In this document: positions 941-64,000 of the stretch, in pieces | How positions within the stretch are numbered: position 1 is the first letter of the stretch | How the letters are laid out: every line of letters starts with the position of its first letter | Source: Eledone cirrhosa | Taxonomy: Eukaryota | Direction: 5' to 3' | Length of the DNA stretch: 64,000 nt | Assembly (NCBI GenBank): GCA_964016885.1 | Contig: OZ024743.1 | Coordinates: 372,682,001-372,746,000 of the forward strand | Notes under the pieces: model-generated | What the model was told of the DNA's origin: nothing | What the model saw: the letters and a program-made list of their open reading frames with translations, nothing else | Databases searched by the model: none | Translations under genes and position numbers: made by a program

Positions 941-1456
941 TATCTTCAAACTGATTTTGAATCAGATACTTTCACCAATGACATCACACCAATTATATTA
1001 GCCGGTCACATCGATAACTATGAAATTATTAAAATGTTGCTTGACCGTGGTTACAGAATTCCAAGACCTCATGATCTCACTTGTCATTGTGATGACTGTC
1101 TCAAAGGAAGTACAGATGATGTGTTAGGCCATTCACGAGCCAGAATCAATGCATATCGGGCACTAGCAAGTCCTTCACTTATTGCTTTATCAAGTAAAGA
1201 TCCCATTCTTACAGCTTTCGAGTTGAGCTGGGAACTTCGGAACCTCAGTGAACTTGAGAATGAATTTAAAACTGAATATCAAGAACTGGGCAAAATCTGT
1301 CAGCAGTTTTCTGTTGATCTGCTCGATGAAATCCGTGGATCAAAAGAACTTGAAATTATTCTAAATCATGATTCACGATCCCCAGATGATGATCAATCTA
1401 AAGAAAACAAGAAATTAAATCGACTGAAACTTGCCATAAAATACAAACAGAAGAGG
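941..1456 (+). CDS. TRPC: TRPC-family channel, exon w1 (last ankyrin repeat, zinc-binding TRP_2 region, helical linker); gene begins upstream of the window
   Basis: Acceptor ttctag|TAT, donor AGG|gtaagg. Translates [100 protein letters not shown], a characteristic TRPC sequence. Confidence 0.95.
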
Positions 1457-4873: not shown

Positions 4874-5108
4874 TTTGTTTCTCATCCAAATTGTCAACAG
4901 TTACTAGCATCGAAATGGTACGAAGGATTAGGCAACTTCCGACGAAAGCCTGCCATTAAACAACTCACAATTGCCTTATCAGTCTGTTTCCTCTTCCCAG
5001 TACTTAGTGTAATCTATATGGTTGCTCCTCATAGTAAATTTGGTAAACTCTGCCGGAAACCTTTTATTAAATTTTTACTTCATGCCTCATCTTATATAAG
5101 TTTCTTAG
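4874..5108 (+). CDS. TRPC: TRPC exon w2 (pre-S1 elbow and start of S1)
   Basis: tttcag|TTT ... TTAG|gtaagt. Translates FVSHPNCQQLLASKWYEGLGNFRRK..KPFIKFLLHASSYISFL. Phase 0 to 1. Not in the ORF track. Confidence 0.95.
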
Positions 5109-5863
5109 GTAAGTATGTTTCATTTAATACATTTTTCTATTTAAAATGAATTTGATATTCATGGGCATGTGGTTAGAATGTCTCAGGAAAGAACCACAAA
5201 AATGTGGTTGGTGTAAGGATGAGCATCCAGTTGTAGAAACCAAGCCAAAATCAGTTCCGTATGAGCCATAATCACTTGACCTGGCATTTCTCACAAAAGG
5301 ACAACTTTTCTAACCTATGTTAGCATGGAAAAATGGGCATTAAACTGTAATGATGATATATACACAACAGGCTTCCCACACAGTCACCATCAATGAAATT
5401 TCACTCTCATTGCTCAGCCGAGACTGTAGTAGAAGTCACTTGACTATGATGCCATACAGTGGAACTGAACCTGAAAAACCATGTGGTTGCAAAACCAACT
5501 TTTTTATTCTCACAGTATACATGTTACTATAAACAGATTACTAATGTATCTATTCTTAAACATGCACTGGATATCTAGTTTTAACATTCCAGCAAATTCT
5601 TGGTTGATGATTTCATGTTAATGGAACCGTGGATCCTCTAAACTAAAAGAAAACCTGAAATATAAGCTAAAATTATTTTAGTTTATTTTTTTGCTTGTTT
5701 TCTTTTTGCTGTTTGTTTGTTGTTTTTGTTGGATTATTTTCTCTGAATAAGTAAAACAATCTCTACACCTCTAAATCTTTCAGAAATTATCTAGAATCAA
5801 GGCATAAAATGTTTGACGAAAGCTTTTAAATACTTGATAATATATAATATTTTAATATAATGA

Positions 5864-6578
5864 TAATAATTGTTTCTACTTTTGGCACAAAGCCAGCAAT
5901 TATCCCAGTGTATTACTGGTACTTTATTTTTTCGACCCCCGTAAGGATGAAAGGCAAAGTTAACCTCGGCGGGATTTGAACTCAGACCATAAAGGGCCGT
6001 AACTCTTTGCGTCAAAGCATGGCATCCGATCCTCTACCGATACTGCAATGATAATTGTTTCTACTTTTGGCACAAGGCCAGCAATTATCCCAGTGCATTA
6101 CTGGTACTTTATTTTATCTACTCCATAAGGATGAAAGGCAAAGTTAACCTCAGCGGATTTTTAACTCAGGCTGTAAAGGGCCGTAACTCTATGTTCAAAG
6201 CATCTACTGATACTACCAATCCACCACCCCAACGATAATAATAATAATATGTATTCTACTACTACTATTTTATTTCTACTACTATTAATATTACTACTAC
6301 TAATAATAATAATAATGGTTTCTGATGTAGGCACAAGGCCAACAATTTTGAGAGAAGGGGAAGTCGATTAAATTGACCCCTGTGCATTACTGGTACTTTA
6401 TTTTATCAATCCCATAAGGATGATGATAGTCATGTAAAACACATAGCATTTACTTGCAGGCTGTTTACTTGCAAACAAATTTAATATTAATAATTGTTTC
6501 TACTTTTGGCACAAGGCCAGCAATTACCCAGTACATTACTGGTACTTTATTTTATCGACCCCGTAAGGATGAAAGGCA
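5864..6578 (-). mobile_element. Tandem cluster of four SINE family B copies or fragments
   Basis: Repeated aattgtttctacttttggcacaaggccagcaatt..actggtactttattttatcgaccccgtaaggatgaaaggcaaa units. Confidence 0.85.
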
Positions 6579-6711
6579 AAATATTAATAATGTTATTATA
6601 ATATTATTATTATTTTATATAAAACTCCCAAATGCATTTTTCTCATTGTTTTTCTATAAATTTATATATGTCATTAAATAGTTTCTTTTTCTTTTTACTT
6701 TATCATTTTAG

Positions 6712-6846
6712 GTCTCCTCATCATGGTTTCTCAAAGAATAGAGAATCCATTATTTTTCCTGTTTCCATTTCAAGAAACAAAAAAGAAAGAGTTGAGAGGA
6801 AAACCTGCCACTATAGTAGAAATGATGATTCTATCCTATGTTGTTG
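6712..6846 (+). CDS. TRPC: TRPC exon w3 (S1 end to S2 start)
   Basis: ttttag|GT ... GTTG|gtaaat. Translates (G)LLIMVSQRIENPLFFLFPFQETKKKELRGKPATIVEMMILSYVV. Phase 1 to 1, in frame with neighbours. Confidence 0.9.
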
Positions 6847-6885
6847 GTAAATTATTTTATATTCCTTTGGTTGTTTAAATATATA

Positions 6886-7042
6886 CAGTGAAATTCCATT
6901 ATAACGAAATTCATGGGGTACGAAAAATTCTTTATAAAGAGATCGACTTAATACATCAAGTGTGTGGCCTGTGATTGAAAAAAATTTCGTTATACTGAAA
7001 AATTTGTTATAATGGTATTCGTTATAACAGAATTTTTACCTG
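6886..7042. mobile_element. Tc1/mariner-pogo type MITE, TA-flanked
   Basis: ta|cagtgaaattccattataacgaa ... ttcgttataacagaatttttacctg|ta, with internal ttcgttata repeats. Confidence 0.65.
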
Positions 7043-7307
7043 TATTTATGTTAATTATGATTATGGTTGGTGATGTCAGAAAATAATCAAATGTTTTCAT
7101 CATAATTTGATCATCATCATCCTCATCATTATCATCATTAAGATCATCATCATCATCATTATCATCATCATCATCATCATTATTATTATCGTCGTTTTAA
7201 CATCCGCCTTCCTTGCTAGCAAGGGATGGATGGGTCTACATAGACCAAGTCAATACTCAAGAAAAGCTACTGACCTCCCAGACAGGCCAGAGATTGGCAT
7301 TTCACTT

Positions 7308-8107
7308 ATGCACAGTCTCTCATGCTACAGAGTTCACAGGAAAGATGCACAGTCTCTCATGCTACAGAGTTCACAGGAAAGATGCACAGTCTCTCATGCT
7401 ACAGAGTTCACAGGAAAGATGCATCAGTCTCTCATGCTACAGAGTTCACAGGAAAGATGCATCAGTCTCTCATGCTACAGAGTTCACAGGAAAGATGCAT
7501 CAGTCTCTCATGCTACAGAGTTCACAGGAAAGATGCATCAGTCTCTCATGCTACAGAGTTCACAGGAAAGATGCATCAGTCTCTCATGCTACAGAGTTCA
7601 CAGGAAAGATGCACAGTCTCTCATGCTACAGAGTTCACAGGAAAGATGCATCAGTCTCTCATGCTACAGAGTTCACAGGAAAGATGCATCAGTCTCTCAT
7701 GCTACAGAGTTCACAGGAAAGATGCATCAGTCTCTCATGCTACAGAGTTCACAGGAAAGATGCATCAGTCTCTCATGCTACAGAGTTCACAGGAAAGATG
7801 CATCAGTCTCTCATGCTACAGAGTTCACAGGAAAGATGCATCAGTCTCTCATGCTACAGAGTTCACAGGAAAGATGCATCAGTCTCTCATGCTACAGAGT
7901 TCACAGGAAAGATGCATCAGTCTCTCATGCTACAGAGTTCACAGGAAAGATGCATCAGTCTCTCATGCTACAGAGTTCACAGGAAAGATGCATCAGGCTC
8001 TCATGCTACAGAGTTCACAGGAAAGATGCATCAGTCTCTCATGCTACAGAGTTCACAGGAAAGATGCACAGTCTCTCATGCTACAGAGTTCACAGGAAAG
8101 ATGCATC
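7308..8107. repeat. 38-bp minisatellite, ~21 copies
   Basis: Unit atgcatcagtctctcatgctacagagttcacaggaaag with 37-bp variants. Explains the three overlapping repetitive ORFs. Confidence 0.97.
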
Positions 8108-8737
8108 AAGTGCGTCAACCCTTGTTTTGTAAGCTTTCTACAGCCAGATACCCTTCCTATCACCAATCACTTTACAGCATATACCAAGTGCATTTATTGT
8201 GTAGATCACCAACATCACCAACGCTAGGGAAGCCATCATGTTCTTTATATGACTGAAGGGTCCTCCTGATCCTTTGTTTGGCAAGCTTTCTACAACTGGA
8301 TGCTTTCCTATCACTAACCACTTTACAGAGTGTACTGGGTGTATTTACTGTGTAAATCCCAAACATTAATTACTTTGTGGATTGGCACCGGACAAATATT
8401 TAGCAGTATTTGTTTCTGGTTAAAAGTCTAGCAAAGTCAACTTTATCATTCATCCTTCTAAAGTTAATAAACTAACGTACCAGTAAAGTACTGGGGTTGA
8501 TATAATCGACTTTCCCCTTTCCACACAATTGCTGGCTTTGTGCCTAAATTAGAAATCATCATCAGTGACATCACCATCATCATCACCATCATAATCATCA
8601 GCAACATCATCATCATCATCATCAGCAACGTCACCATCATCATCATCAGTGACATCACCATCATCACCATCAGCGACATCACCATCATCATCATCATTAT
8701 TGTTGTTGTTGTTATATTTATTATTTCCTACTTTCAG

Positions 8738-8877
8738 GTTTAATATGGTCTGAGATAAAACAAATATGGATGCAGGGAGCCCTAGAGTACATCCATGATA
8801 TGTGGAACATATTGGATTTTGTCACCAATTCCCTCTACATGGCCACATTTACACTACGTCTTCTGGCTTTCATTGAA
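8738..8877 (+). CDS. TRPC: TRPC exon w4 (S2-S3)
   Basis: tttcag|GT ... GAA|gtaaat. Translates (G)LIWSEIKQIWMQGALEYIHDMWNILDFVTNSLYMATFTLRLLAFIE. Phase 1 to 0. Confidence 0.95.
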
Positions 8878-11804: not shown

Positions 11805-12154
11805 GTATATAATGAAAGAGCTGCACATAACCCATATGCTTTTGAAGAACGCAAACATTGGGATGCTTATGATCCAAACCTTATTGCCGAAGCTTTGTTT
11901 GCTGGTGCTAATATCTTCAGCTCCTTGAAGTTAATTTATATTTTCACGATAAATCCCCACCTGGGACCACTACAGATCTCCTTGGGGCGTATGGTTGCAG
12001 ATATTGTCAAATTTATATCAGTATATTTCCTCGTACTCTTCTCCTTTGCCTGTGGCTTGAACCATCTTTACTGGTACTACGCTGCACTCCGCGCAGAAGA
12101 ATGTGAAGCAGGAATTACACATTCATGTGATATCAAATACAGAAGTTTTGCAAA
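11805..12154 (+). CDS. TRPC: TRPC exon w5 (S4, S4-S5 linker, S5, extracellular Cys pair)
   Basis: ttacag|GTA ... GCAAA|gtaagt. Translates [86 protein letters not shown]......SC..YRSFA. Ends in phase 2. Confidence 0.95.
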
Positions 12155-17057: not shown

Positions 17058-20000
17058 TGCTTTCTTTATTAACCACAAGGTTTGACATAAATTATAACAT
17101 TAAGGACAGCACAGAAAGGTACATGATGGTACAAATGGGCATTTCTGTATGCAAAAAAAAACAAAATTATATATATATAAAAAACAAAAACAAACGATGT
17201 AGCAAAAAATGAAACAAGGAAAAAATCCCCAATAAGGGGGAGACTTCTAAGGATCACTTGAGAAGAAAACCCACAAAAAGCCACAGTCACCCTAACTGCT
17301 AGGACAAAGGCCCTCTTCCAGTTTTCCTCCTACGATACTACAGGCATATACTCAGAGCAGGCCCATTCACACAGGCCATCTTGCCTCACCCACCTTTCAA
17401 CAAACTGGCTGGAAGACAGCACTTCCCTCTCCCCCATGATTTTCCTTTTCAGGTGAAACCTGAAAAAGGTAATGAGCGTGTCACTGAAGAGGAAAGTGCC
17501 CATCTTCAACCCTTTCAGATGCGTCCACCATACAACCTCTTTTACCATGGCCACTAGGCAGATAAAAACTGCGTGCCATCTTGGTTAAAGGAGGGCAACA
17601 AGGCAATCTTCACGATGGACTCAGCTGATAGCCGTATCTGTCCTACACGCGACAGTAGATGTTCAATATAACCCCACAGCAATGTCGGCAATGTGTCAGC
17701 AATGCTCGGACACTGGACGAGTGCATGCAGGATGGTTTCATCACCCTGCACGCATCTTGGACAGGCCCGGCTGACGGCCTGTAGAGTTTATCCTGAACTG
17801 GCAAAGCTCCCTGGTAGCTCTGCCAGACCAGAGATCTCTGGAAGTTGTCCATGGGCCCTGGCCCAAAAGTTCTCCCAAAGAGATTGGGCTAGTTGATTTT
17901 CGTCGATGCCCAGAGTCTCCTCAAGGATGTCGTTTCTCTTTCTCTCCACTAACCCTCTATAGAATGCCAAGGTGGAGTTTCCAGCGATCGCATTGCCTGA
18001 TTGGTCGAGAGCTGTGAGCGCCTGAAGACATTCCAATCTCCAAACGCTCCCTCTCAGTCTTCGTTTGATCAAGGACTGCAGCTCCGTGAAGGAGACGAGC
18101 TGAAGAAATGTGCATCTAGCAAACAACGACCACACCTGTTCACCGTCAAGGAAGAGGTGGAGATGCCATAGCCTGAGAGTATGTCTGCACATCATCAGCC
18201 ACGACATGCCCTAGCCCTCCATGTAGTGGGTGTTGACAGCAGATGGACCACCTGACTATTGGAGTGCATCCCTACCACAAAAAGCGGAATAGCAAATGCT
18301 CCAGCACAGTCAGGCAAGGCTTAGGACAAGGCATGATGGTCAGGCAGTAGTAGATGACAGATGCAAGGTACGCATTCGCCACCTCCGCTCGACCTTTCAG
18401 GGATAGCTTCCTCTCAGCCCATCTGGGTGAGAGAGGCCACCCTGTTCGTCACCTCGTCCCAGTTTTTGTTCATCTGGAGGTCCGGATAGACCAGACTCCT
18501 AGCAATTTAATCGGTCCGTCCCTCTAGTGCTTGACATTGAATGGCATAACCTGCCTCTCCAGATGCCGAGCCGCAGACCCATCGACTTTTCCTAGTTAAT
18601 CATTGCTCCTGTCACCGCCTTGTATTCTCTTAGTGTAGTGCTGATATGTTTGGCACTCAACACCACTACAGTGACATTGTCGGCATATGCTGACACAGTT
18701 CTCCCACAGCCCAGTTCGCGCAGGATGCCCCTCAACATCTCCAGTTTGTGTAGTAATGGCTCGAGAGTCAATACCTACAACAGGGACGATAGGGACATCC
18801 TTGGCGGACCAAGTGCAAGATGTTGAACGGTTCCGAAAGGTGACCATTCACTCTCACCACAGAGCAGATATCACTGTGCATGGCAGCAAACCAACCTCTG
18901 AAGAGGGGCATAAATCTAGATATGATCTGGATGACCTGATGCAGTTTGTCCATGTCCACATTGGCACATTTGGGAAATCCAGTTAAAAACGTCTGAGCAA
19001 GGTTATGAGGCGTTTACACCCTCCTCCCATATCCGCTAATCCCACACAGTCCTAGCGTGCATCTAAGATCCCATTCCAGTCGCCCACTAACACTAAAGAG
19101 TGGGACATTCCAAGAAAGGTCTCCAGTCGCCGGAAGAAGTCAGGCTGTCGTGCCCCTGTCGGGGCATAGCTGACCACTAGCCTCAAAGCTTGCCCTTGTT
19201 CACTGGTCACGTCCAGCACCACCAACTTACCTTCTGGATCCAAGAAGATGGCCTGTATCTCGAGATCCAGGCTTCTCCAGAACAACACAGCCACTCCTCC
19301 CCTAGATCCGGGACGGCTTGGAGATGTGTTGTGTACACCTCGTAACTGCCGAAAATGGGTGTGCGAATGCCCGTGCATCAGAGATTCTGGTCTCGCTGAT
19401 GGCCACCACATCTATGTTTAGCGACCTGAGATCGTTGAGCAGGTGACCCTGCTTCCAAGATGACCCCAGGCCACATGCATTTATACTGCCTATTCTGAGA
19501 GAAGGCATGTTGGCCAAGATAGGAGGGAAAGAAGTGAGAGGCGAAAAGTAAAAAACTTTACCTTTGGCTTTTTTTTAGGAAGGGAGTGGGTGATGCATCC
19601 CTCCGACCAGTGGTGGATTTCTCCATGAGAATGTGAGAATATATTCTTTTCGAGAGGGTCCCTTGATAGTCTCCAATTGCCGCAGGGAACTTTTTCTTTA
19701 ATGTTGTGTAATTCTTTTGAGAGATTTCAATTATTTTTCTGTGTGTAGGAGGTGCAATTTTGGTGGTTTGTATGTAATTTGTTTCTGTGATGTTGGTGTG
19801 GTGTTGAATGTAATTTAAAAGCTTTGTTGTCTGTGTCTATAGCTGTGTATTGTGTCTGCTTTTGGGATGTTGGTGCTTTCTGTGTTTACTGTGGTGTTGC
19901 TGGAGGTGACGATGAGGTAGATGATAATGATGGCGGTGATGATGGTGATGGTGTAGGTGGTTGTGGGGGAGGGGCTGTTGATGGTGATGGTGGTGGGGTC

Positions 20001-21140
20001 GTTGAATTTTTAATTTTGGTGGTTTTTTTCCTCTTCTTTTTTTTTTTGGAGGGCGAAGGTAGGGAGTTCCTTTTTTTTTTTTCGCTGCGATGGTTTTCCA
20101 CCCTACAGCTACATCACACTCCCAGTCCAATTTAGGGTTATTGGGTAGGGGCAGGCTCTCCATTGGTCTTGTTGGTGCTGTTGGTGATGGAGATGGAGTT
20201 TTTGTCATTGTTGTCGCTGGTGCGGTTTGGCCACACCAGTCGCCGGGCATGGCGTAGGTAGAAGGGGGGAAGGGGGAGCACATGCTCACCTTGGTGAGTT
20301 TGGGGCAGAAGACCTTAGGATGTGTTTTGTCTCCACACCTGTGACATCTTGACAGTCATGAGTAGATGGCTTTGACAGTCATGAGTAGATGGCTGCCGTT
20401 GTCCAAGTCGATCACATCAGGAGTGGCCTCTATGCTTTCATGGTTTGATTGGATGATTAGCTCCATCACTGAGCCTGACCAGTTTTTCTGTCTTATACTC
20501 ATGGCATCTAGGATTGTGGTTGACTCCTCGACGTCAGCGAGGACGGCCACCATCAGCCAAGTGATCTCCACTGAGGGTGGAACCTGGGTCACTTGGACAT
20601 TTGTGACTCTCTGGCCACAGTATGTGGGCACCATCACTATTTTGTCTCTGCTGAGTGGCATAATGGAGTGTGCTCTGGCTTCCTCAGGTGTAGCAAAGAG
20701 AACATCCACTGTGCCATACTTCGGTCCTCAGGCTATGTAAGTTTTCTGTGCCCAGACGGCACCCATAGCCCTTTGGACCTGCAACTCGGTTGGCCGTTCC
20801 ACCCGGTGCGATTTCAGTCCAAGTGTATGGTAGGAGACCGTACACAAACGTCAGTTTTTCTGATGTCGGGTGGGTGAGGCTTACCCTGTGTCTGGTTTTT
20901 TTTTACCAACATCTTGGCCTGCCTCATTTTCATGTCACTGATGCGGACTCGTTCAACATTTTTGGCAGTCTTCGCAAATGGTGTAGCTTGGGCAGCTCCT
21001 ATCTGTTGTGTGGTTTCGTCGTTACTGCTGTTTTTGTTGTTGTTGTGGTATTGCTGTTGTTGTGGTGTTGTTGTTGTTGTGGTGTTGTTGTTGGTGTTGT
21101 CGTTGTCGCTGTTGTTGGTGGTGTTGCTGAGCAAAGAAAC
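17058..21140 (-). mobile_element. Decayed L1/Tx1-clade LINE with ORF1 (zinc knuckle) and fragmented ORF2
   Basis: ORF1 knuckle CHRCGDKTHPKVFC (~20305-20346). ORF2 start LRIGSINACGL (19517), GGVAVL, LVGDWN, VRQGCP, SAYADNV and C-terminal CPRCVQGDETILHALVQCP. Many stops and frameshifts plus an internal deletion near 19050. Confidence 0.88.
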
Positions 21141-22299: not shown

Positions 22300-23365
22300 T
22301 ATATAAGAATTTGAAGGATTTAGATTTAGTAAAATAACTAAATTTTTCCTTATTAAGCTTGTGTTTGGAACATAACTTAAATAAAATAAAATTGTGAGGG
22401 AAGGTTTTTAGATAAATTTAAATACTTTAAGATAAGCAGTTTAATATCATATAACCAGGGGTAGTTTCAAGCAGTTTGATATCAAAAAGGGTTAATTTTG
22501 ACACTGGAAAGTTTTTAGACAAACTTAAACAATTTAAAATAAACAATTTAGTATCATAGAATCAGGGGCAGTGTCAGGTGGTATTAAAGCTGTGTCACAT
22601 TTGAATTTGGCCAAATACACACAAAACTGTAAAACTATCAAATAAATATTTTCTCAGGATAAAAATAAAATTTAACCCTTCCATTACCATATTTCTAATG
22701 AAAAACACTGCCTATGATTTTCTAATATCTTTTAAAAATGTCAAGAATTGGGAGAGATTTAGTAATATATCTAACTTTCTCATTATTTGTCTGGTGTCAT
22801 GACAAAAAGCACCCAGCACACATGTGGCTGGTGTTAGGAAGGGCATCCAGCCATAGAAACCAACCTAAAACAGTTCTGTATGAGCAAGACAGTCACCTGA
22901 ACTGACTTGCTTCAAATGAGACAACCCATCTAACCCATGCTCACATGGAAAATAGATGTTAGATGATGGTGATAATGATGATGATGATGATGATGATGTT
23001 CAGAACTTAACAAATGTTCTTAGTATAAAATTAAGATAGGGAATTTAAAAATAAATATGAACACTTTAAAACAAACAACTTTGGGTAGTTTCGGGTGGTT
23101 TGGTATCAAAAGGTTTAAGCTGGTATTTAGAGCATAACTTAACAAAACTTCTTACATAAAATGATAAAGGAAGGTTTTTAGTCCATTATGCACACTTTAA
23201 AACAAATAGATCTGGATTTATCTGATGTTTGGAACATAACTTAATAAATGTGTCTTAATGTAAAATTAAGGTGGAAAGTTTTTAAATATAAACACTTTAA
23301 AACAAACAGTTTTGTACCATAGAACCAGAGGTGGTTTGGGGTGGTTTGGTATCATAAAGATTAAA
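22300..23365. mobile_element. Cluster of piggyBac-like MITE fragments
   Basis: Repeated gtgtttggaacataacttaa..gaaggtttttagataaat..tttggtatcaaaagggttaa units. Confidence 0.7.
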
Positions 23366-23822
23366 TATTGCTTGAAAATCAGGCAAGACACACAATAAAT
23401 ATTTTAAGGAGAATATTTTAGAAGTTAAGATTCTAGAATATTTCTAACAGTTGCTATTATACTAACCTAATCTGCTAATCTTATCCATGCACATCTGCAA
23501 TGTTCCCACACTCAATGAAACTGCTTTTCAACACAAAGCTTACAAAATGCAGGCACAGTTTTGACAAAGCTTTTATTAACAATAATGATAATAATAATAA
23601 TAATAATATTATCATTTCGGTATAAATAATATTTGTTAAACATAATAGTTTCCTCTAAATATAATCTGCTTAAAATGCTAAAATATTTTTGAAAGGTATA
23701 ATAAATAATATTTTATTTTTAAAACATGGGAGAAGATAAAATCAGATTTCTGAATATTGACATTCTAATTTCTAACCAAAAATAGGTACAAATATCAATT
23801 GTCAGTATATTACTAAATATTT

Positions 23823-23981
23823 TGAAATTTGAAAATCTGAGAGTCCCAAATGTAGAAAATAACTGTAATAACAGTCAAGCACTATAGATAATAGTTGCGA
23901 AAATTGGGCAAATTACCCTTAGAGACTGTTACTACAGTTATCACATTTTCTGCCTTTCAGACTCCACATTTTCAAATTTCA
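23823..23981 (+). other. Diverged stem-loop about 220 nt upstream of pore exon 6A
   Basis: tgaaatttgaaaat..gagtc..agaaaat.aactgtaataacagtc pairs with gactgttactacagtt..attttctg..gactc..attttcaaatttca. Confidence 0.7.
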
Positions 23982-24199
23982 GATACCCCAAGTACTTCAA
24001 TAATTCAAAAGACTAAATATATTGTTAAGTCTAAGTAGATTAAAATCTATATCTAAAAATGTTATGATCTGTACTGAACAAGAGCCATGATCTGAACTCA
24101 AGTTTTACTGAATTCATTCCAAGAAAATCATACCTATATCTTTGTTGTATATTTATGTTTGTTGTACAATTACTATTGTCTGTTTCCTTTATTTTCCAG

Positions 24200-24395
24200 T
24201 CTTTTTGAGATCTTGCAGAGTTTATATTGGGCAATTTATGGCCTTGTTGATCTAGAACACGCTCATTTGGATGAACCACACAAACTGACAGAACTGATAG
24301 GCAAATTGATGTTTGGCAGTTACAGTATGATAGCCATTATTATTCTGCTTAACTTACTTATCGCTATGATGAGCAATTCCTACCAACTCATCTAT
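24200..24395 (+). CDS. TRPC: TRPC pore exon w6A (pore helix, filter, S6); alternative copy 1
   Basis: ttccag|T ... TAT|gtaaga, 196 nt, phase 2 to 0. Translates LFEILQSLYWAIYGLVDLEHAHLDEPHKLTELIGKLMFGSYSMIAIIILLNLLIAMMSNSYQLIY. Confidence 0.93.
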
Positions 24396-25870
24396 GTAAG
24401 ACTCATTCCTTTGTATACAAAATTCTTTATTCATTATATTTTCATCAATATATATATATTCACCCTTGTAATTTTAATGAATTTTGTAATTCGTTTTTGT
24501 GTGTGAAATTTTTCAGAAAAGAAAATTATGACCTTCTATCTATAACTGTAATAGATTTAACAATTTCTTTTGAACAGGCAACAAGTATATTCTTTTCTCT
24601 TTCAGCATAGATAACTCGGAAAATAATACATGAAAAAATAATTCTCTAACAACCTGGACCTTCACAGCTTCATCCGTTCATCACTTCCAGAACATTCCAA
24701 AATACCGGTATTCGTTAAAAATAGTCGTTCATTTATCAAGGAATTTTAATCTTGTGTTGAATTTTTCTTTGTTAAAATTTTATACAGATTTTCAGACCTG
24801 ACCATTTGGCAAATTCCTCAATAATCTGCTTCTTCTTTACAAACTTCTGCACTATTTCTTAATTTTTTAAATCTTTTTTTGATTTTAAATATATTTAGAA
24901 TATAAAACTAGTTAGTTAGTTAATTAATCATAATTCTATGAAATAATAATATTTTAAATTTAAAAATGCTGAATAGAAAAAATTATATTTTCAAAAAAGG
25001 GTAGAAGAGAAATTAGTATTGTAGTTGAATTCTGGGAAACATATCTCTAATGAAACAAAAAAATAATATTCATTAAACGAAGAGAGAATGAAGGCTTCTG
25101 ATTCACACTTGATAAGAAGTCTGAATATTAATGTAGACAGATTAAATGACTATCACATATAATAGAACTACAATGATATGGGGTTGTTTTGAAAGAAACC
25201 ATGCTTATATATCATATATAACTATGTCACAGGTTTTCTAAAAATATAATATTGTACCAAATGGTACCCTGATGTCAGATGGTAAGAGCAATACTTGGGT
25301 GTACTAACTTAATTTTTTTTTTTTTTGTGTGGGAAGGAGGAGTTTTATTTTGTTTTGTCTTTGATGAGTGCCAGAGTTCTAGACAGGATGAACTGAGCAT
25401 AGGGGTTAGGGCAAAGCCTAGGGTAGGGATGAATACAGTATAGGTGATGAGAAGAGGAAAGACAAATGAATCAAGAATGCCTAGCAAGCTCCAAAGAGCA
25501 GTGGCCATTGTAGTAATGGTAGACTGTGTGTCTATATAAGTCACCGGCTGGAGAGTGTCTAACCAATTGCTTTAATTTCTTTAATTATACACTAACTGAT
25601 GATATTTCATTCTAAATGAAGATCATAAAGTAACCATATAATCTTTCCCAGAAAATAAAGAATATAATTATTTCTGGAAGTTTTCCCAAATATTCTATTA
25701 TATTACTTTGGGAAGCTGACTAAAAAATAATCGTATTTCTATTGACCAAAACATTTTTCAATTTTCAGACTACTAAGAGCAAATATTTAGAACAGACATC
25801 ACAGATATAAATCAGTTTCAATAATCTTAGAAATACTGAAGATTCCTGTAACTTTTTCTTTTCTTTCCAG

Positions 25871-26066
25871 TCTTTTTGAAATCTTGCAGAGTTTATATTG
25901 GGCTTTGTATGGCCTTATAGAACTGGACAACGCTCACTTGGACGAACCACACAAATTCACAGAGCTGGTTGGCAAACTGATGTTTGGAAGTTACAGTATG
26001 ATAGCAATCGTTGTGTTGCTCAATTTGCTCATTGCTATGATGTCACTATCATATCAAATGATATCT
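25871..26066 (+). CDS. TRPC: TRPC pore exon w6B; alternative copy 2
   Basis: ttccag|T ... TCT|gtaaga, 196 nt. Translates LFEILQSLYWALYGLIELDNAHLDEPHKFTELVGKLMFGSYSMIAIVVLLNLLIAMMSLSYQMIS. Confidence 0.92.
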
Positions 26067-26124
26067 GTAAGAAAGTCTTTTACTTTCTCCTTATTGATCA
26101 TGATTTATTCTGCTTCTTTTGCAG

Positions 26125-26320
26125 TCTTTTTGAGATATTGCAGAGCTTATATTGGGCAATTTATGGTCTTATTGATCTGGAAGATGCCCATCTGAAAGAA
26201 AATCACCATTTCACTGAGCTCATTGGGAAACTGATGTTTGGTAGTTACAGTTTGATAGCCATAATTGTACTTCTGAACATGCTAATCGCTATGATGAGCA
26301 ACTCATACCAAATTATATCT
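26125..26320 (+). CDS. TRPC: TRPC pore exon w6C; alternative copy 3
   Basis: ttgcag|T ... TCT|gtaagg, 196 nt. Translates LFEILQSLYWAIYGLIDLEDAHLKENHHFTELIGKLMFGSYSLIAIIVLLNMLIAMMSNSYQIIS. Confidence 0.93.
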
Positions 26321-29300
26321 GTAAGGAATACAATTTAAGTCTGCTCTACCTAAGTTACAGCCTACTGATATAAAGTTCTGGCAAGACGAATACAATCCAC
26401 ACTGTTCTATATAGTTTTTTCCTCATGGTACGCATATATAAACCATGTTCATTTCTATAGTTAGCTGCAATATAGAAACTGTATATTAACATTCATATAT
26501 TTGACAGTAGAAGATAGATATATGTTTCGAGCCATATGCAATCCTAGCTATTTAGTTATTGGGCCTTTAAAATAACAACCCGTGCTCTACTACAGAGTTA
26601 GTATACAATTGTTTTTGTTCAAGACACCTCCAGTATAGTTATTTATTTTCATCACTAAATATTTTTAGTCTCCTTTAACCTTTTCACAATAAACTTCTGC
26701 CCACACTTCAAAAAATATTTTTCTTTTACTTTAAAACTATTACAATTGGGAAATCTTAGAAATTAAGAATTTTATGCCTTAATTCTAAACAACAAAGTCT
26801 TAAATTTTTTCTTATTAATTTGTTAGTATTTCTGATAAAATTAAAAATATTGTTTTCTGGAGAATTTAAAAAAAAATACAGAAATTGAAAATCTAGGGAA
26901 TTAGAAATTTTTTTGTCTTCAAGAATTCTAAATAATGAAGTTTTTAAATTTTTTTATTAATTTGGAGACTTTAGAGATAATATTTTTGATGATTCTTTTC
27001 TTTCTTTTCACGGAGAAACTAATAGAATTCTTTTAAAGTAATTTTTCAAGCAATATGTGAACAATACATTTGTTTAAACTCTGCTTGTTTTTACCTGGGT
27101 TTGGAATTTTGGCATAAATGAATCCAAACAAATATTTTCAGCTGCATTAATTTCTTAATGTAAACCAGTCAACCATGAAATAGAAGTTAAACTTATCTTC
27201 AGTGAGGTAGGATATGTCAAATGGAATTATATACCAAGCCTTAACATTTGGTTCAATATTCATTTGTAGGTTTTAAAAGCTTGAGGGACATGTAACTGCA
27301 AAAATAGTTGGAGCACAACCCTCCCAGTGTTTTAGACAGCACCTTCCTTATCACACAAATGTTGTTTTTTTTTAACCCCAAATTAAACTCTACTCCCTTC
27401 ATCAACCATTTGCAAGCCCCTTTACTTATAAATGCATTGTCTATGGCATTATCCTACACATGTATTTCAAGGGACCTCAGATCCACAATTTCTTTTCTTA
27501 TAATTTATTCCTTTGTGAGTCTGGCAACACCCTGATTATATCGGCTGATTCATTATCTTAAATTAACTGATATTTCATTACAGTTTGTACTTTTTTGCTC
27601 AGCTTCTCAGAGAATCTTCAGAAGTTCTTGTACAACTCTACCATTTCATATGAAACATACCTTGAACGATTTCAGTTATCTTAAACTGGTTTGTTTGAAG
27701 TATCCACAATAAATTCTTTATCTGTAGAGCATAAATGTTGGTGTTGAATCACTTACCACTATTCCATGGGCAGTATAGTTAGAATCATATATCCTATATC
27801 AATGTTATCTGTTGAGAGAAATGTTCAAAATGCCAACCGATGAACTTTAATGTCAAAATACTTTGTATTAACATGAAACATCAGTTGATAACAAAGAATA
27901 TTCTGATTAGACTTTCAATGGAATGTCTGCATAAGATATCAGATATTGTTCTATCTGGGAAAGAAAAAGAAAATATGTGTCCTATTGTAGAAATCAGTTG
28001 TCTAAAATAGTTTTAATAAAAGACACAATCTACAATTTTCGAATAATTTTGAAAATAATCAAAGAAATAGAGAGATTGAGTAATAGAATTAATTTTCTTT
28101 ACTAAGCCTGTGTTTGGAGGATAACATAGCAAAGGTTCTTACATAAATTTATAATGAGAGGTTTTTAAATAAATATAAACACTTTAACCCTTTTTCACAG
28201 CCATATTTTTAACGAAAGACACTGCCTATGATTTTAAAATAATTTTTTTAATATTTAAGAAAATAAAGAGTTCTAATTAAAAAAAAAAAAATTATTCTTA
28301 CTATCAAGCTGGTGTTTGGAGCATAACTTAAGAAAAGTTCTTACATAGAGTTATGATGAAAGTTTTTAGATAAATATAAATGTTTGGTATCAAAAGGTTT
28401 AACTGTAGCTAGACTTTGTACAATAAAAGAAAGGTTCTTTTTAATAACAGTACATGAAAAGGACAATACTAGTGAGTGTGAAAAAGTTACAGCTCAAACC
28501 TATGTAGGTAGGTTTGGCTGGCCTCTTACAAAGTAATATTTCATAGATTTCTCAGATAATCCTATCATGAAAAGCAACTTGTGTTTTGCTCAGTCGAAGA
28601 ATCTAACACAGCCTTATGATGTAAATTTTTTCCAGTTTTTAAATAAGGCTATTGTTTAAAAAAGAAAAAAGTTACACTAGTCGTTTCATTGCCATATTTT
28701 AAATGAAATACTACACTGCATATGTATTTCTATTCATTTAAGAATAATTTGAAGGAGGTTTAATCAAATATGTAATGTTTTCATGATAAAGTTGGTATTT
28801 GGTGCATAACTTTACAAATTGTTCTGAAACAAGATCATCTCAGACAGTTGTAATTTGAATACAAACAGAGCTGACTAGGGTTAGGGTTAGGGCTAAGGAT
28901 AGAGTTACTATTAGGGTCATGGTGTCTCGAGTAGGACAGGTATGATGATAGGAAGGGGTTAATGAGGACATATGGAGATATAAGATATAACCTTTTTTCT
29001 TATTTTTAGTTTTTTTTTTGTTTTTAGAATAGGTGATTTTAATAATTTAATGTAATTTATCTTGTTTGAAAAGAGAGCAACTCCAATTAAATATGAAAAT
29101 AGTTTCAAAATTTTGGAAGTCTTTGTAAAATTTCTAGTTGATGTAAAACTTTTCACACTTTCCCAACCTTCTTCCTTATGTGTTTGCACTATCTGTGAGT
29201 CTGCCAGAGCTGTATAGAAGTAAGCTGTAAAAGTCGGTTTGTTGCAAATGCTTTCTTTTTTCATTCAGCTTTTGATTCTTTCTACATAATGCTATAACCC

Positions 29301-48330: not shown

Positions 48331-48525
48331 AGCCAAGCTGATGAAGAATGGAAATTTGCTCGTTCCCGACTCTGGATAAGTTACTTTCTAGAAGGCGCAA
48401 CTGTTCCTCCACCTTTTAACATCTTTCCCAGTCCAAAGTCTTTTACAAATGTTGTTGCATCCATCAAAAATCTACTCCTGGCTCACACAGCAGAACAGAA
48501 GACAGCCAAATGGAAGAATGTTCGG
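48331..48525 (+). CDS. TRPC: TRPC exon w7 (TRP box and proline-rich TRP box 2)
   Basis: atttag|AGC ... CGG|gtaagt. Translates [38 protein letters not shown]..; EWKFAR is the TRPC signature. Phase 0 to 0. Confidence 0.96.
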
Positions 48526-49916: not shown

Positions 49917-49958
49917 TCCACTGTCACAAACATTAACAAGAGAGAAATTCGTTACCAG
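49917..49958 (+). CDS. TRPC: TRPC micro-exon w8 (42 nt, start of rib helix / CIRB-like region)
   Basis: Long pyrimidine tract, cttcag|TCC ... CAG|gtaaaa. Translates STVTNINKREIRYQ, which joins VVIRKLISRY to recreate the TRPC YQ-x-V-x-R-x-L-x-x-RY motif. Confidence 0.85.
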
Positions 49959-50007
49959 GTAAAATTCTATATTTATTATTTCTTTGAGAAAGTCAGTTGT
50001 GTGTATA

Positions 50008-50300
50008 TCCTTCTTCTTCGCCCACTTATTCCTGAGAGGGTCATGGGGGAAGAGTTTTCAAACACTCCTTCCAGCAGGTCCTGTCAGAAGCAACCATTTC
50101 CAACTGATCAGGCTGGATCACCAAGCCAAACAAGCCAAGCTCATGGATGTTATCCAAACATCTTGCTCGGGGTCAACCTCTGGGTTTCCTGCCAGGTGGT
50201 TTTGCTCGTAAAATCTATCCAGTGATTCTTTCCTGAAACATTCTAACCATATGGCCATGGGGCTTCTCCAATAAAGTGCGTAGCTCAGAGATCAGAGAGT
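50008..50300 (-). mobile_element. Decayed RTE-type LINE 3' fragment
   Basis: Minus strand reads RKPRG*PRARCLD (RPRGRPR..W.D motif), with a (gaa)n tail. Confidence 0.45.
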
Positions 50301-50471
50301 CACTCCAGGTAGAGCCACTACTTCTCCAAATTGAAAGATCACAGCTCTGATACAATGGGCATGTGTGTATATTCAATTTAGAATATGTACACTGTATCCC
50401 TGCCCTGCATGTTGTAAGAGGCATCGGTGCCAGGAAGGGTATCTAACTATAAAATATTACCTTAATAGGGC

Positions 50472-50660
50472 GATGGATTGGCAGTATCGGTAGAGGGTCG
50501 GACGCCATGCTTTGCAGCAAAGAGTTACGACCCTTTGTGGTCTGAGTTCAAATCCCGCTGAGGTTAACTTTGCCTTTCATCCTTACAGGGTCAATAAAAT
50601 AAAGTACCAGTAATGCACTGGGTAATTGCTGGCCTTGTGCCAAAAATAGAAACAATTATC
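50472..50660 (+). mobile_element. SINE family B (conserved central domain aactttgcctttcatccttacggggtcgataaaataaagtaccag)
   Basis: tRNA-like head tggcagtatcggtagag..gagttcaaatccc and tail tgctggccttgtgccaaaa..gaaacaattat. Confidence 0.85.
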
Positions 50661-50840
50661 TTAAGAAGGACTCTATGAGGAGTATGAAGCTAAGCAGGAG
50701 GCCTGCAAGGCTAACCTCTGCTTAACCCTTTTGTTACCAAACCAGTCAAAACCAGCTCTGATTCTATGAAGTAAAACCACCCATTTTAAATGTTTCCAAT
50801 TTAAATTAAAATCTTCCAGCATATAAGAACTTTACATTAA

Positions 50841-51217
50841 CCCTTTAGCATTTAAACCTGTCATATCCAGTCAGAATTCTCTTTCTTCTTTCTGTTCAAA
50901 CCGGCTGGAACTAGCCACTCATACTGATGTTAATATATTGTTCTCAAAATAAATAATATCAAAATCTCATAGATTCAATATTATGTGATTCAATATTACC
51001 GTGAAAATACAATAACATATATAGAATAATTGTTTCTACTTTTGGCACAAGGCCAGCAATTACTCAGTGTATTACTGGTACTTTATTTTATTGACCCTGG
51101 AAAGGCAAAGTTAACCTCGGTGGGATTTGAACTCAGAATGGAAAGGGCCGTAACTCTTTGCGTCAAAGCATGGCGTCCGACCCTCTACCGATACTGCCAA
51201 ATGTAAATGCTAAAGGG
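50841..51217. mobile_element. piggyBac-like MITE (inner), TTAA target duplication
   Basis: ttaa|ccctttagcattta ... taaatgctaaaggg|ttaa. Further copies at ~12324-12553 and ~57801-58148. Confidence 0.8.
51027..51200 (-). mobile_element. SINE family B copy nested in a MITE
   Basis: Reverse complement of 50472-50660. Confidence 0.85.
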
Positions 51218-51453
51218 TTAAGTTACTATCTTAGTAATGAAATAATTGATAATTATAGTAAATCCATCAAAATTCTTTGTTAACTAATTGAAATAGAGTG
51301 TATTTCATTAGAAATTCGGTCATGAAAGAGTTAACAGAGAAAATGACCATCAATTGCTGTTGTTGTATTTTGATATAATCAAAAAATGTGTGCTGTTTCT
51401 TGAAGTAGTTTCTGTTTGTTTATTTGTTACCTGGTTATCTTTCTCTTGTACAG

Positions 51454-51732
51454 GTGGTTATTCGTAAGTTAATTAGTCGTTACATCATGAATAAACAACG
51501 ACCACAGAAGGATGAGATTGTCTCTCAGGATGACGTTAACGAACTTAAACAAGATATCTCAACATTCCGTTTTGAACTGATGCAAGTGTTGAACACTAAC
51601 GGCTTTGAAACCCCTGTTATACATCAAGCGAAAACCTCGAGTAAGAAAGACAGAATGTGGAAGAACCTTTCAGTGGCAACTGATACTAATCCAGAACAAC
51701 TTTTGGAAGAAGCTGGTTTGGTTGACGACTAG
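51454..51732 (+). CDS. TRPC: TRPC terminal coding exon w9 (rib helix and C-terminal coiled coil)
   Basis: gtacag|GTG. Translates VVIRKLISRYIMNKQR..VSQDDVNELKQDISTFRFELMQVL..AGLVDD*; ELKQDIS.FRFE is the TRPC coiled-coil motif. Confidence 0.9.
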   Translation: MVIRKLISRYIMNKQRPQKDEIVSQDDVNELKQDISTFRFELMQVLNTNGFETPVIHQAKTSSKKDRMWKNLSVATDTNPEQLLEEAGLVDD

Positions 51733-59270: not shown

Positions 59271-60685
59271 TTATATATATATATATATATGTATGCATGT
59301 ATGTATGTATGTATGTATGTATCCCAGTACAACCTGTCCCATGGTCGGGTCGTTGGCGACTAAACTGGCAACCCCACCAAGGTTTCTTGGTGAGGAGGGT
59401 GACTTTGGACATCCTGCAGGACTAAAAACAAAACCTGTCAAAGGGCAAAGGAGCTCTTAAGAGTCAATGGCCATCCAAAATCACTGGGAGAGATGACCCC
59501 TTAGCCTTTGTCAAGGCAGAATTCTAGGAGAAGGAAAACTCTGATATAACACCTGCAACCCTGATGGTATCCAATGATGTTGACTTGTTCTTCTTTTTGG
59601 TAAATATCATCTTGGTTAAGAGAGTGGGACTGGCTTTGTGCAGTGCCTTTGCTCACTATAAAAGCTTCACGGCACAGACATTTCTTTATATCTGGAGATC
59701 TCTCTGCACTTGTCCTCACATGGTACCATGGACCCAGCACTATGTGTCGATAATTGTCACAAGTGTAGTGTTTGTACCAGAGATTTCAAGTCGCTGGCTG
59801 GACTAAAAAGTCACACTCGTTCAGCGCATCGGTAGGGGTTCTCCTACATGGATATAAAGTAGTGGCCATACTCGAAAACGAGTTGGCAGCCACCATGTAT
59901 GTATATAAAGACATGAAGTACAGATGTAAAGTATCATAACAAGTGTTTTTCAATTGGCAGTTATTAGTGTTAAATAACATAAATAATGTAGTTATATTTA
60001 TAATTAATTAATGTTAATATAATTGTTTTATTAACAGTCAAATATTCAATAATATAGTAGTTATATTTAAAATTAATTAGTCAAGGATACAGTTGTTATA
60101 TTTACAGCCAAATATCATTGATAATACAGTTATATATTGTTTGTAGTTTTTTAGCAGAAATTTTGGTTTGATGTATGTTGGATGTGTGATTAGTGTGAGG
60201 TTGATGTGATCAACATTAGGGGTGCAATTTCTCCAATGCATCAGTATCGAATGAATAAACTAATAAGGAAACAAAACTGCTATTACATATTTATTTGTTA
60301 CTATGGAATACAACGAATCCATGTGACGAACAATAAAGTATTTTGGAGGGCTGTAAATATATTTGGTATAGAGAAATTTATCAGTAAGATATGTTGTATA
60401 AAGTTTTTAGGGAAAGATTAAATACATGACTGTAGAGAGGTGAAGAAATTAGGGAAGATTACCTCAGTGTAGTGTCACACATGTTATTAGTGACCATCTA
60501 AAATGGCTGCTCTGCTATCACAGTCATGATCTGTCGTCAGTAATGATAATAATAAAAATTGTGTACAGTTCTCAGGTGCACTACAATTCATCAAAGGTGC
60601 ATGTATAGTACATAGAATAATGTACAAATGTCAGGAAAGTGAACAGTGTACGAGTCATTATATATACAAGAAAGATAAGAGCCAA

Positions 60686-63600: not shown

Positions 63601-64000
63601 TTACAGTGAACAATATAGTTATATTTACAGTAAACAATATAGATGTTATATTTACAGTAAACAATATAGATGTTATATTTACAGTAAACAATATAGATGT
63701 TATGTTTACAGTAAACAATATATATGTTATATTTACAGTGAACAATATAGATGTTATATTAACAGTAAACAATATATATGTTATGTTTACAGTAAACAAT
63801 ATAGATGTTATATTTACAGTGAACAATATAGATGTTATATTTACAATAAACAATATATATGTTATATTTACAGTGAACAATATATATGTTATATTTACAG
63901 TGAACAATATATATGTTATATTTACAGTAAACAATATAGATGTTATGTTTACAGTAAACAATATAGATGTTATATTTACAGTGAACAATATATATGTTAT
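60686..64000. repeat. 27-bp minisatellite/satellite, >120 copies, runs off the window end
   Basis: Unit gatgttatgtttacagtaaacaatata with variants (gtga, ggtatt, 24-bp deletion). Confidence 0.98.

What the first reader, a model, noticed from the sequence alone, without database searches (positions are those of the whole stretch)
24200..26320. Three tandem, mutually exclusive pore exons: a TRPC channel with a swappable selectivity filter and S6 gate
Seen: three paralogous exons (24200-24395, 25871-26066, 26125-26320), each exactly 196 nt with AG/GT sites, phase 2 to 0 and no stops. Many differences are synonymous and the protein is conserved. All other exons in the window are single-copy, so this is exon triplication rather than gene duplication. 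Any one copy joins exon w5 (..FA AA|T = Asn) to the TRP-box exon in frame. Known: this segment is the pore helix (LFW motif, here LYW), filter and S6 of TRPC channels, and mutually exclusive duplicated exons tune Nav, Cav and AMPA channels. Inference: one gene makes three pores, and mixed tetramers could give many permeation or gating variants. I do not recall such a whole-pore cassette described for a TRPC gene, but could not check.
Basis: partly seen in the sequence, partly recalled or inferred. Interest (0 to 1): 0.93.

Follow-up and report, generated by a model that had tools for sequence, protein, structure and literature searches.

The report
Alternative pore exons, octopus TRP channel
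An octopus TRPC channel gene, the counterpart of the channel cloned from squid photoreceptors, carries three either/or copies of the exon that builds its pore; two are old and well conserved, the third is often broken, and the same exon is duplicated in several other invertebrate groups, so pore fine-tuning by splicing looks like a recurring feature of this channel family.

Summary
Real. Three 196-nt pore exons (A, B, C) lie in one octopus TRP-gamma-like (TRPC) gene. Each alone keeps the frame; skipping or any pair gives a premature stop. Contigs from relatives show exon5>A>exon7 (3 of 4 runs), exon5>C>exon7 (1 of 4), B>exon7 only (1 of 4), and no copy-to-copy joint. RefSeq already predicts all three isoforms in Octopus sinensis. 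The gene matches the Loligo trp-like protein, which carries A. A and C predate the octopus-squid split; B is broken in one octopus relative and apparently in squid-type records. The exon is also duplicated in Mytilus, Haliotis, Owenia, Lineus, mantis-shrimp trp and nematode models, probably independently. 'Swappable filter and gate' is overstated: the filter glycine and three gate positions are identical in all three copies; only B changes the Ca2+-site Asp to Glu. Tandem-exon splicing in ion channels is a known kind. Ten paper searches found no TRPC pore case, but a 2004 Limulus 'TRP variants' paper could not be read. This scan noted pore-exon pairs in other channels, none in TRPC. Function untested.

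The parts
24200..24395 (+). Pore exon A (pore helix LYW, filter GLVD, outer loop, S6)
   Evidence: AG/GT and open frame; spliced to exons 5 and 7 in contigs of runs X1, X4, X3; differs by 1 of 65 aa from the Loligo and O. sinensis A sequence
25871..26066 (+). Pore exon B (filter GLIE; N59L next to the gate); evolutionarily labile copy
   Evidence: Intact here and in O. sinensis X3; B>exon7 junction in X3 only, exon5>B not seen; 1-nt deletion and a stop codon in organism A
26067..26124 (+). 58-nt intron between B and C; candidate branch points 30-36 nt from the B donor; probable steric block to B>C splicing (inference)
   Evidence: Length and branch-point-like motifs; retained in the contigs that cross it in all 4 runs, no B>C joint listed
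26125..26320 (+). Pore exon C (filter GLID; D20, F29, L43, V48, M52, S65)
   Evidence: One contig of run X3 carries both exon5>C and C>exon7; RefSeq isoforms in O. sinensis and O. bimaculoides; squid-type record P0369
11805..12154 (+). Constitutive upstream exon (S4-S5 region, turret); donor splits the Asn codon (phase 2)
   Evidence: Pfam Ion_trans; its last 18-30 nt are the loose ends before A and C; frame
48331..48525 (+). Constitutive downstream exon with the TRP box (EWKFAR)
   Evidence: Its first 24-30 nt are the loose ends behind A, B and C; frame
941..1456 (+). Constitutive exon with the TRP_2 domain; the first coding exon (ankyrin region) lies about 1 kb before the window
   Evidence: PF08344 E=2e-28; L006:8702-9022
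4874..8877 (+). Three constitutive exons (4874-5108, 6712-6846, 8738-8877): pre-S1 to S3
   Evidence: Splice sites and frame; match to O. sinensis protein
49917..51732 (+). Two final constitutive exons (49917-49958, 51454-51732 with the stop)
   Evidence: Splice sites and frame

Best explanation
One TRP-gamma-like TRPC gene, orthologous to the squid trp-like protein, splices exactly one of three homologous exons into each mRNA. SHOWN: each copy alone gives a full channel frame; skipping or co-inclusion gives a premature stop; A and C occur with both junctions in relatives; all three are under purifying selection in this lineage. INFERRED: B and C cannot be joined because the 58-nt intron puts the branch point too near the B donor; A+B and A+C products are removed by nonsense-mediated decay; A is the main, probably photoreceptor, form, and C and B are minor or cell-type-restricted forms. 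INFERRED EFFECT: the core filter and gate are kept, and the swap fine-tunes the pore. A versus C changes outer-mouth charge three residues after the Ca2+-site Asp (His20/Asp20), a lipid-pocket residue of S6 (Met43/Leu43, matching the DAG contact V610 of TRPC5) and the S6-TRP-helix junction (Tyr65/Ser65). B alone changes the Ca2+-site Asp to Glu and Asn59 to Leu, so it is the best candidate for altered permeation, but also the copy most often lost.
For: Frame test of 8 of 8 combinations: A, B, C give 695 aa; skip stops at 474 aa; AB, AC, BC, ABC stop at 526 aa. Loose ends matching exon 5 and exon 7 at A in 3 of 4 runs, at C in 1 of 4 (one 238-nt contig), at the B donor in 1 of 4; none of the 5 listed joints links two copies. 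RefSeq O. sinensis X1/X2/X3 differ by 10-12 aa, all in 578-631; O. bimaculoides X1/X2 by 11 aa. dN/dS 0.07-0.12 between copies. Only 3 of the 12 listed differences in B against organism B are non-synonymous (p=8e-5 against neutrality). Loligo and O. sinensis are identical at 65 of 65 aa in exon A against 608 of 738 elsewhere. Six A/C differences are fixed over 4 A and 4 C rows from octopods and squid-type records. Residue map from the TRPC4 alignment, TRPC5 gate and DAG contacts (PMC7987348, passages), D621 numbering and its role in Ca2+ permeation (PMC4370639, passages).
Against: No run of the window's own organism with junctions was laid; all junction evidence comes from relatives, from assembled contigs of runs whose RNA status is a guess. 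C and B junctions come from a single low-depth run (depth 6-10). No exon5>B junction was seen. Absence of copy-to-copy joints in contigs is weak, because such products would be degraded and rare variants are dropped. Contigs that retain the introns around B and C occur in all 4 runs. Tissues are unknown, so 'A = photoreceptor form' rests only on the Loligo record and the title of Monk et al. 1996. The substitutions are conservative and nothing functional was measured. The shortest spliceable intron in octopus was not determined, and about 60 nt is a normal intron length in flies (recalled).
Confidence: 0.72

Rival explanations
1. Mutually exclusive splicing is real, but the isoforms are biophysically near-equivalent. 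The copies persist because different cell types came to depend on different splice sites, or because the cassette throttles expression through intron retention and decay.
For: 44 of 65 positions invariant; filter glycine and gate positions identical in this species. Intron-retaining contigs across B and C in all 4 runs. A survey of human tandem-exon events reports mostly conservative changes (PMC9741552, passages).
Against: Six A/C differences are fixed across octopods and squid-type records instead of drifting; A is 65/65 identical between Loligo and O. sinensis; the same exon is duplicated in several other lineages, which hints at a benefit from alternative pores.
Confidence: 0.3
2. One reading: the cassette is a true selectivity and gate switch, giving three distinct pores and many mixed tetramers.
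For: B has Glu at the D621-equivalent site and Leu at 59, the only Leu among 191 distinct pore sequences scored there. Squid-type C has His at the Q629-equivalent gate ring (2 of 2 rows), and that position differs between copies in 4 of 7 lineage pairs.
Against: In this species A and C have identical filter and gate residues. The position-62 excess is nominal only (p=0.025, one of 65 positions). B is broken in organism A and apparently in squid-type records. Co-expression in one cell is unknown.
Confidence: 0.15
3. Only A (or A and C) matters; B is a decaying relic that is still intact by chance in this octopus lineage.
For: Frameshift in 2 of 2 runs of organism A and a stop in the 1 run covering it. 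Decayed B-like sequence just before C in P0003 and P0011. No exon5>B junction. B differs from O. sinensis at 3 aa against 1 each for A and C.
Against: B shows purifying selection against organism B, its donor is used, and RefSeq models it as X3. If the decayed squid-type copy is its orthologue (shared Leu59), B stayed intact in octopods since the coleoid split.
Confidence: 0.25
4. History rival: the duplication is one ancient protostome or mollusc event whose copies were later homogenised within lineages, not repeated independent duplications.
For: AU tests do not reject grouping cephalopod C with Mytilus copy 1 (p=0.14), A with Mytilus copy 2 and other bivalves (p=0.25), or A with Haliotis copy 1 (p=0.063). 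Only 65 columns are available.
Against: All 10 cephalopod rows form one starred clade (99/93; 91/91 in the 26-row tree). C with Haliotis copy 2 is rejected (p=0.009). Both Haliotis copies share a 2-aa and both Lineus copies an 8-aa insertion, and arthropod and nematode pairs carry their own lineage signatures.
Confidence: 0.2
5. Assembly artefact or remnant of a whole-gene duplication.
For: None found.
Against: Copies are 20-24% divergent in DNA; contigs of two other organisms run from the end of A through B and C in the same order; other exons are single.
Confidence: 0.01

Closest known systems
RefSeq predicted isoforms X1/X2/X3 of Octopus sinensis TRP-gamma-like (XP_036364088, XP_036364090, XP_036364091) and X1/X2 of O. 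bimaculoides
   Same: Same gene; the isoforms differ only at aa 578-631 and correspond to A, C and B.
   Different: Automated models. A 2026 cephalopod TRP survey kept one sequence per locus and has 0 occurrences of 'splic', 'exon' or 'pore' (PMC13402157; abstract and passages; supplements not opened).
Loligo forbesii trp-like protein (CAA11261, O46129), taken to be the squid photoreceptor TRP of Monk et al. 1996 (paper not seen; title in reference lists)
   Same: 84% identical over the window's constitutive exons (526 of 627 aa); carries exon A.
   Different: One isoform on record; linking the record to that paper is my inference from name and species.
Tandem duplicated, mutually exclusive exons in ion-channel genes (Copley 2004, not seen; as summarised in PMC3342872 and PMC9741552, passages)
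   Same: Homologous tandem exons, one used at a time, mostly conservative changes, repeated origins in ion channels.
   Different: Neither paper's main text contains 'TRP' (0 occurrences each; supplements not opened). Here the exon holds pore helix, filter and all of S6, and the same exon recurs in several protostome lineages.
TRPM3 short/long pore-loop variants (PMC9886277, passages)
   Same: Splicing alters a TRP pore and, there, cation selectivity.
   Different: An alternative 5' splice site that lengthens the loop, not duplicated exons; a different subfamily; function measured.
Limulus TRP mRNA variants (Bandyopadhyay and Payne 2004, PMID 15525336; not held; only the title seen)
   Same: TRP mRNA variants in an invertebrate rhabdomeric eye and brain. 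I recall, without being able to check, that variants differ in the pore/S6 region.
   Different: Unverified. If the recollection is right, this is prior art for pore-region splice variants of an invertebrate TRPC, in a different lineage.

Membership tests
TRPC (TRP-gamma-like) channel | N-terminal ankyrin repeats followed by the TRP_2 domain | tested here: met
   PF08344 E=2e-28 on 941-1456; the first coding exon is in L006; ankyrin Pfam entries are precomputed for the O. sinensis and squid-type orthologues, not scanned on L006 itself
TRPC (TRP-gamma-like) channel | Pore module with LFW-type helix and filter glycine, closest to TRPC4/5 and TRP-gamma | tested here: met
   Ungapped 64-aa match to TRPC4 564-627 (E=1.5e-18), TRPC5 568-631 and TRP-gamma; motif reads LYW
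TRPC (TRP-gamma-like) channel | TRP box EWKFAR after S6 | tested here: met
   Exon 48331-48525; motif recalled
TRPC (TRP-gamma-like) channel | PLC-coupled cation conductance | not testable with these tools
   Needs expression and recording
Tandem duplicated mutually exclusive exons | Adjacent homologous exons of equal length and phase with intact splice sites | tested here: met
Tandem duplicated mutually exclusive exons | Exactly one copy keeps the reading frame | tested here: met
   8 of 8 combinations behave as predicted
Tandem duplicated mutually exclusive exons | Each copy occurs in spliced transcripts between the same flanking exons | tested here: inconclusive
   Met for A (3 of 4 runs) and C (1 of 4) in relatives; for B only the downstream junction plus a RefSeq model
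Tandem duplicated mutually exclusive exons | Copies are never spliced together | tested here: inconclusive
   No copy-to-copy joint among 5 listed joints, but contigs drop rare forms
Steric mutual exclusion (intron too short to splice) | Donor-to-branch-point distance below the spliceable minimum | tested here: inconclusive
   58-nt intron, candidate branch points at intron positions 31 and 37; octopus minimum unknown; thresholds recalled
Docking-site/selector exclusion (Dscam type) | Conserved complementary intron elements that compete for pairing | tested here: not met
   No convincing duplex among 55 block pairs (best p 0.01-0.02, diffuse AU-rich pairing); inverted repeats in 23000-27500 are short or about 70% matched; the 12-kb and 22-kb flanking introns were not searched
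Selectivity or gate switch by splicing (TRPM3-like in effect) | Copies differ at filter or gate residues | tested here: inconclusive
   Not met for A versus C in this species; met in sequence for B (D17E) and for squid-type C (Q62H); function untested

The most novel reading that the evidence does not exclude
The pore exon of rhabdomeric-type TRPC channels has been duplicated independently at least six times in protostomes (cephalopods, mussels, abalones, an annelid, a ribbon worm, crustaceans, nematodes) as a recurring way to make a visual and a non-visual pore from one gene. In octopus, splicing would switch Ca2+ permeability or lipid and proton gating between retina (A) and other cells such as skin or brain (C, B), giving natural pore chimeras of a candidate light-activated channel.
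Probability: 0.25. Interest if true: 0.8.

Novelty: new member of a known kind. Interest (0 to 1): 0.55.

Why it matters
The gene is the best sequence candidate for the cephalopod light-activated channel: it matches the Loligo trp-like record, and an alpha-TRPC transcript is eye-enriched in Sepia and Octopus embryos (PMC13402157, passages; I did not check that their assayed gene is this locus). Ca2+ permeability of invertebrate photoconductances ranges from unmeasurably low to over 50-fold above Na+ (PMC3250099, passage), and its molecular basis outside Drosophila is open. Three natural isoforms that differ only in 11-13 pore residues make this directly testable. The repeated duplication of the same exon in distant protostomes adds TRPC to the ion-channel families with convergent tandem-exon splicing. 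Surveys that keep one isoform per locus miss it. The surprise is moderate: the mechanism class is well known, the isoforms already sit in RefSeq, and the core filter and gate hardly change.

Tried and rejected
Fourth or decayed copies in the window: none; none in 50 kb of flanking DNA. Duplicated pore exons in five other TRPC-like genes of this genome: one copy each within 10 kb; for the C28 gene the 10 kb do not span the whole intron. RNA-pairing mechanism: no convincing duplex. Run search: no holder on record as RNA was listed, which is no evidence on expression; 4 of the 12 listed runs were laid. The three DNA holders may be the assembly's source and were not counted. Contig depths (A 891, 1185, 592 against 52, about 3, 133 for intron-retaining B/C contigs; A 5, B 7, C 10 in X3) cannot rank exons and are only a weak hint that A dominates where the gene is abundant. 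Single-sequence structure prediction of the B isoform: mean pLDDT 41, unusable. Recurrence of the same changed positions across lineage pairs: position 62 nominal p=0.025, position 37 p=0.001 on 2 pairs, not persuasive over 65 positions. Cordylochernes P0172 has two identical pores within a larger repeat and was dropped as a model or assembly duplication; P0010's second hit is weak and was dropped. Pore variants were seen in 7 of 30 protein clusters looked up (compared in 25, 40, 65); none among the listed members for oysters, clams, scallops, pulmonates, Patella, Pomacea, Lingula, bees, wasps, locusts, ticks, a spider, Steinernema or Trichinella (at most 15 members listed per cluster, so not proof of absence). 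The cluster of P0049 holds two pore variants that may be different species and was not counted. Paper searches gave no description of duplicated TRPC pore exons; Bandyopadhyay 2004, Liu 2007, Minke 2010 and Kingston 2015 were not held. One search had exon ends off by one and was replaced.

Full report
OBSERVATION. The three exons are at the stated coordinates: A 24200-24395, B 25871-26066, C 26125-26320, each 196 nt with AG/GT and one open frame. They share 149-156 of 196 nt and 52-54 of 65 aa, with dN/dS about 0.07-0.12 and near-saturated dS. There is no fourth copy in the window or among the 8 own-genome matches. All other exons are single. The A-B intron is 1475 nt and the B-C intron 58 nt.

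THE GENE. Window exons are 941-1456, 4874-5108, 6712-6846, 8738-8877, 11805-12154, [A, B or C], 48331-48525, 49917-49958 and 51454-51732; the first coding exon lies about 1 kb upstream. The constitutive exons are 96% identical (603 of 627 aa) to the TRP-gamma-like proteins of Octopus sinensis, O. vulgaris and O. bimaculoides, 92% to Argonauta and 84% to the Loligo forbesii trp-like protein, so the window is from an octopus. The exon matches TRPC4 564-627 and TRPC5 568-631 without gaps: pore helix, filter, outer loop and all of S6. The Loligo record came up in the cluster of P0008. From its name and species I take it to be the channel cloned from squid photoreceptor membranes (Monk et al. 1996, title only).

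MUTUAL EXCLUSION. Any one copy gives an open frame of 695 aa across the window. Skipping stops at 474 aa, and AB, AC, BC and ABC stop at 526 aa, two codons into the second copy. Contigs of four public runs from two related organisms were laid on 24100-26400 (4 of 12 listed runs; RNA status guessed, but the contigs join exons that lie 12 and 22 kb apart). Loose ends matching the end of exon 5 and the start of exon 7 flank A in X1, X4 and X3. One 238-nt contig in X3 carries both junctions of C. B shows only its downstream junction, in X3. None of the five listed joints links two copies; contigs crossing the B-C intron retain it. RefSeq models agree: O. sinensis X1, X2, X3 are A, C, B and differ only at aa 578-631; the two O. 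bimaculoides models seen are A and C. Limits: no junctions from the window's own organism, low depth for B and C, and contigs drop rare forms. How exclusion is enforced is inferred. Candidate branch points lie 30-36 nt from the B donor, which suggests a steric block. Double inclusion with A would be caught by nonsense-mediated decay. No docking-selector pairing was found.

HISTORY IN CEPHALOPODS. Loligo carries A, identical to O. sinensis A at 65 of 65 aa while the rest is 608 of 738. A squid-type unnamed record (P0369, near the Loligo cluster) carries C. So A and C predate the octopus-squid split (about 270-300 million years, recalled). Two unnamed genomic ORFs with squid-type C show a decayed copy about 62 nt upstream that shares B's rare Leu59, which suggests that B is as old and has died there. 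In organism A, B has a 1-nt deletion (2 of 2 runs) and a stop codon (the 1 run covering it). In the window and organism B it is intact and constrained: 3 of 12 listed differences are non-synonymous (p=8e-5; 10 further differences in the stretch were not shown). B is therefore a labile third copy.

OTHER LINEAGES. Same-species isoforms that differ only in this segment, with one or two unrelated small differences in Owenia and M. trossulus, exist for Mytilus (15 aa; three species), Haliotis (12-13 aa; three species), Owenia (12 aa), Lineus (4 aa) and the mantis shrimp Oratosquilla trp (8 aa). Tandem pore segments also appear in gene models of Mytilus coruscus, Owenia, Romanomermis and Mesorhabditis and in two unnamed arthropod-type ORFs, one with a 35-nt spacer. 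Pore variants were seen in 7 of 30 clusters looked up; many molluscs and insects showed none. In a 60-row tree all 10 cephalopod rows form one clade (99/93), Owenia and Lineus copies pair within species, and Haliotis, arthropod and nematode copies stay in their own groups. Lineage-specific insertions are shared by both copies in Haliotis and Lineus. AU tests reject one cross-lineage pairing (p=0.009) but not three others (p=0.06-0.25). Independent origins are favoured, not proven.

WHAT THE SWAP CHANGES. Using exon position + 567 = TRPC5 number: the TRPC5 gate is I621, N625, Q629 and DAG contacts include Q573, F576, W577, V579, V610, I611, L616, L617 (PMC7987348, passages); the narrowest filter residue is a glycine (PMC7116371, section 6). 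Position 17 is residue 621 in three Drosophila TRP proteins, where D621G is described as making the pore impermeable to Ca2+ (PMC4370639, passages). In the window, Gly14, Ile54, Ser58 and Gln62 are the same in A, B and C. Position 17 is Asp in A and C and Glu in B. Fixed A/C differences over 4 + 4 rows are H20D, L29F, M43L, I48V, L52M and Y65S; B-specific are 12, 17, 20, 59 and 63. So A versus C is not a filter or gate swap but a change of outer-mouth charge, a lipid-pocket residue and the S6-TRP-helix junction. B is the only copy that touches the Ca2+ site. In squid-type C the third gate ring is His, and this position differs in 4 of 7 lineage pairs, a nominal signal only.

MECHANISM. Most likely (about 0.7): regulated either/or splicing gives a main A form, probably the photoreceptor form, and minor C and B forms with modestly different Ca2+ handling or lipid and proton sensitivity. 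Splicing and selection are shown; tissue pattern and biophysical effect are inferred. Rivals: functionally equivalent isoforms (0.3), B a relic (0.25), a strong selectivity switch (0.15), artefact (0.01); these overlap in part.

PRIOR KNOWLEDGE. Convergent tandem-exon splicing in ion channels is established (PMC3342872, PMC9741552; passages), and TRPM3 changes selectivity by pore-loop splicing (PMC9886277, passages). Ten searches of the held library found no account of duplicated TRPC pore exons. A 2026 cephalopod TRP survey dropped isoforms, a crayfish survey lists other TRP splice events (passages), and a 2021 preprint does not mention splicing. Supplements of these papers were not opened and could list such events. 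The 2004 Limulus paper on TRP mRNA variants was not held; my recollection that its variants lie in the pore region is unchecked. Earlier notes of this scan hold no TRPC case but several pore-exon pairs in other channel families (unchecked).

VERDICT. Confirmed and expressed in relatives; a new member of a known kind, made more interesting by its link to the squid photoreceptor channel and by its recurrence across protostomes, and less so by conservative changes, existing RefSeq models and possible prior art. Interest 0.55.

Noticed in passing
window:51640: Internal donor-like site in the last exon (KTS|GT). A squid-type record (P0369), Mytilus and Haliotis have long C-terminal isoforms that diverge exactly here, so a second terminal exon probably exists downstream. 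It was not found in the rest of the window, in 20 kb beyond, or by the genome search.
   Followed up: partly
P0383/P0389 (Lineus longissimus), aa 513-553: A second pair of equal-length alternative segments (15 aa differences) upstream of the pore, combined freely with the pore variants in isoforms X1-X4.
   Followed up: no
P0009 (unnamed arthropod-type ORF): Two pore exon copies separated by only 35 nt, a stronger case of an intron too short to splice than the octopus B-C intron.
   Followed up: no
window:24366-26368: Intron-retaining contigs run from the end of A through B and C in runs X1 and X2, and into the intron before A in X2; slow splicing, a detained intron or DNA in the run.
   Followed up: no
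window:23965-23987 and 25752-25774: A similar 23-nt TTTTCAG-containing element lies upstream of A and of B; could be chance in AT-rich DNA.
   Followed up: partly
G000:C28:34752545-34893361: Second TRPC gene, the closest paralogue (39-54% identity), with one pore exon found.
   Followed up: partly
L004 (G000:C3:283514.6-283515.5 kb): TRP-like coding stretch without introns across the transmembrane region, unlike the other paralogues.
   Followed up: no
window:31932-34868 (- strand): 979-codon open frame beginning with an endonuclease-like sequence, probably a LINE retrotransposon in the 22-kb intron; further LINE-like fragments at 17550-20730 (family judged by eye).
   Followed up: no
window:7200-8250 and 60660-64000: Minisatellite arrays that give long spurious open frames.
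   Followed up: no
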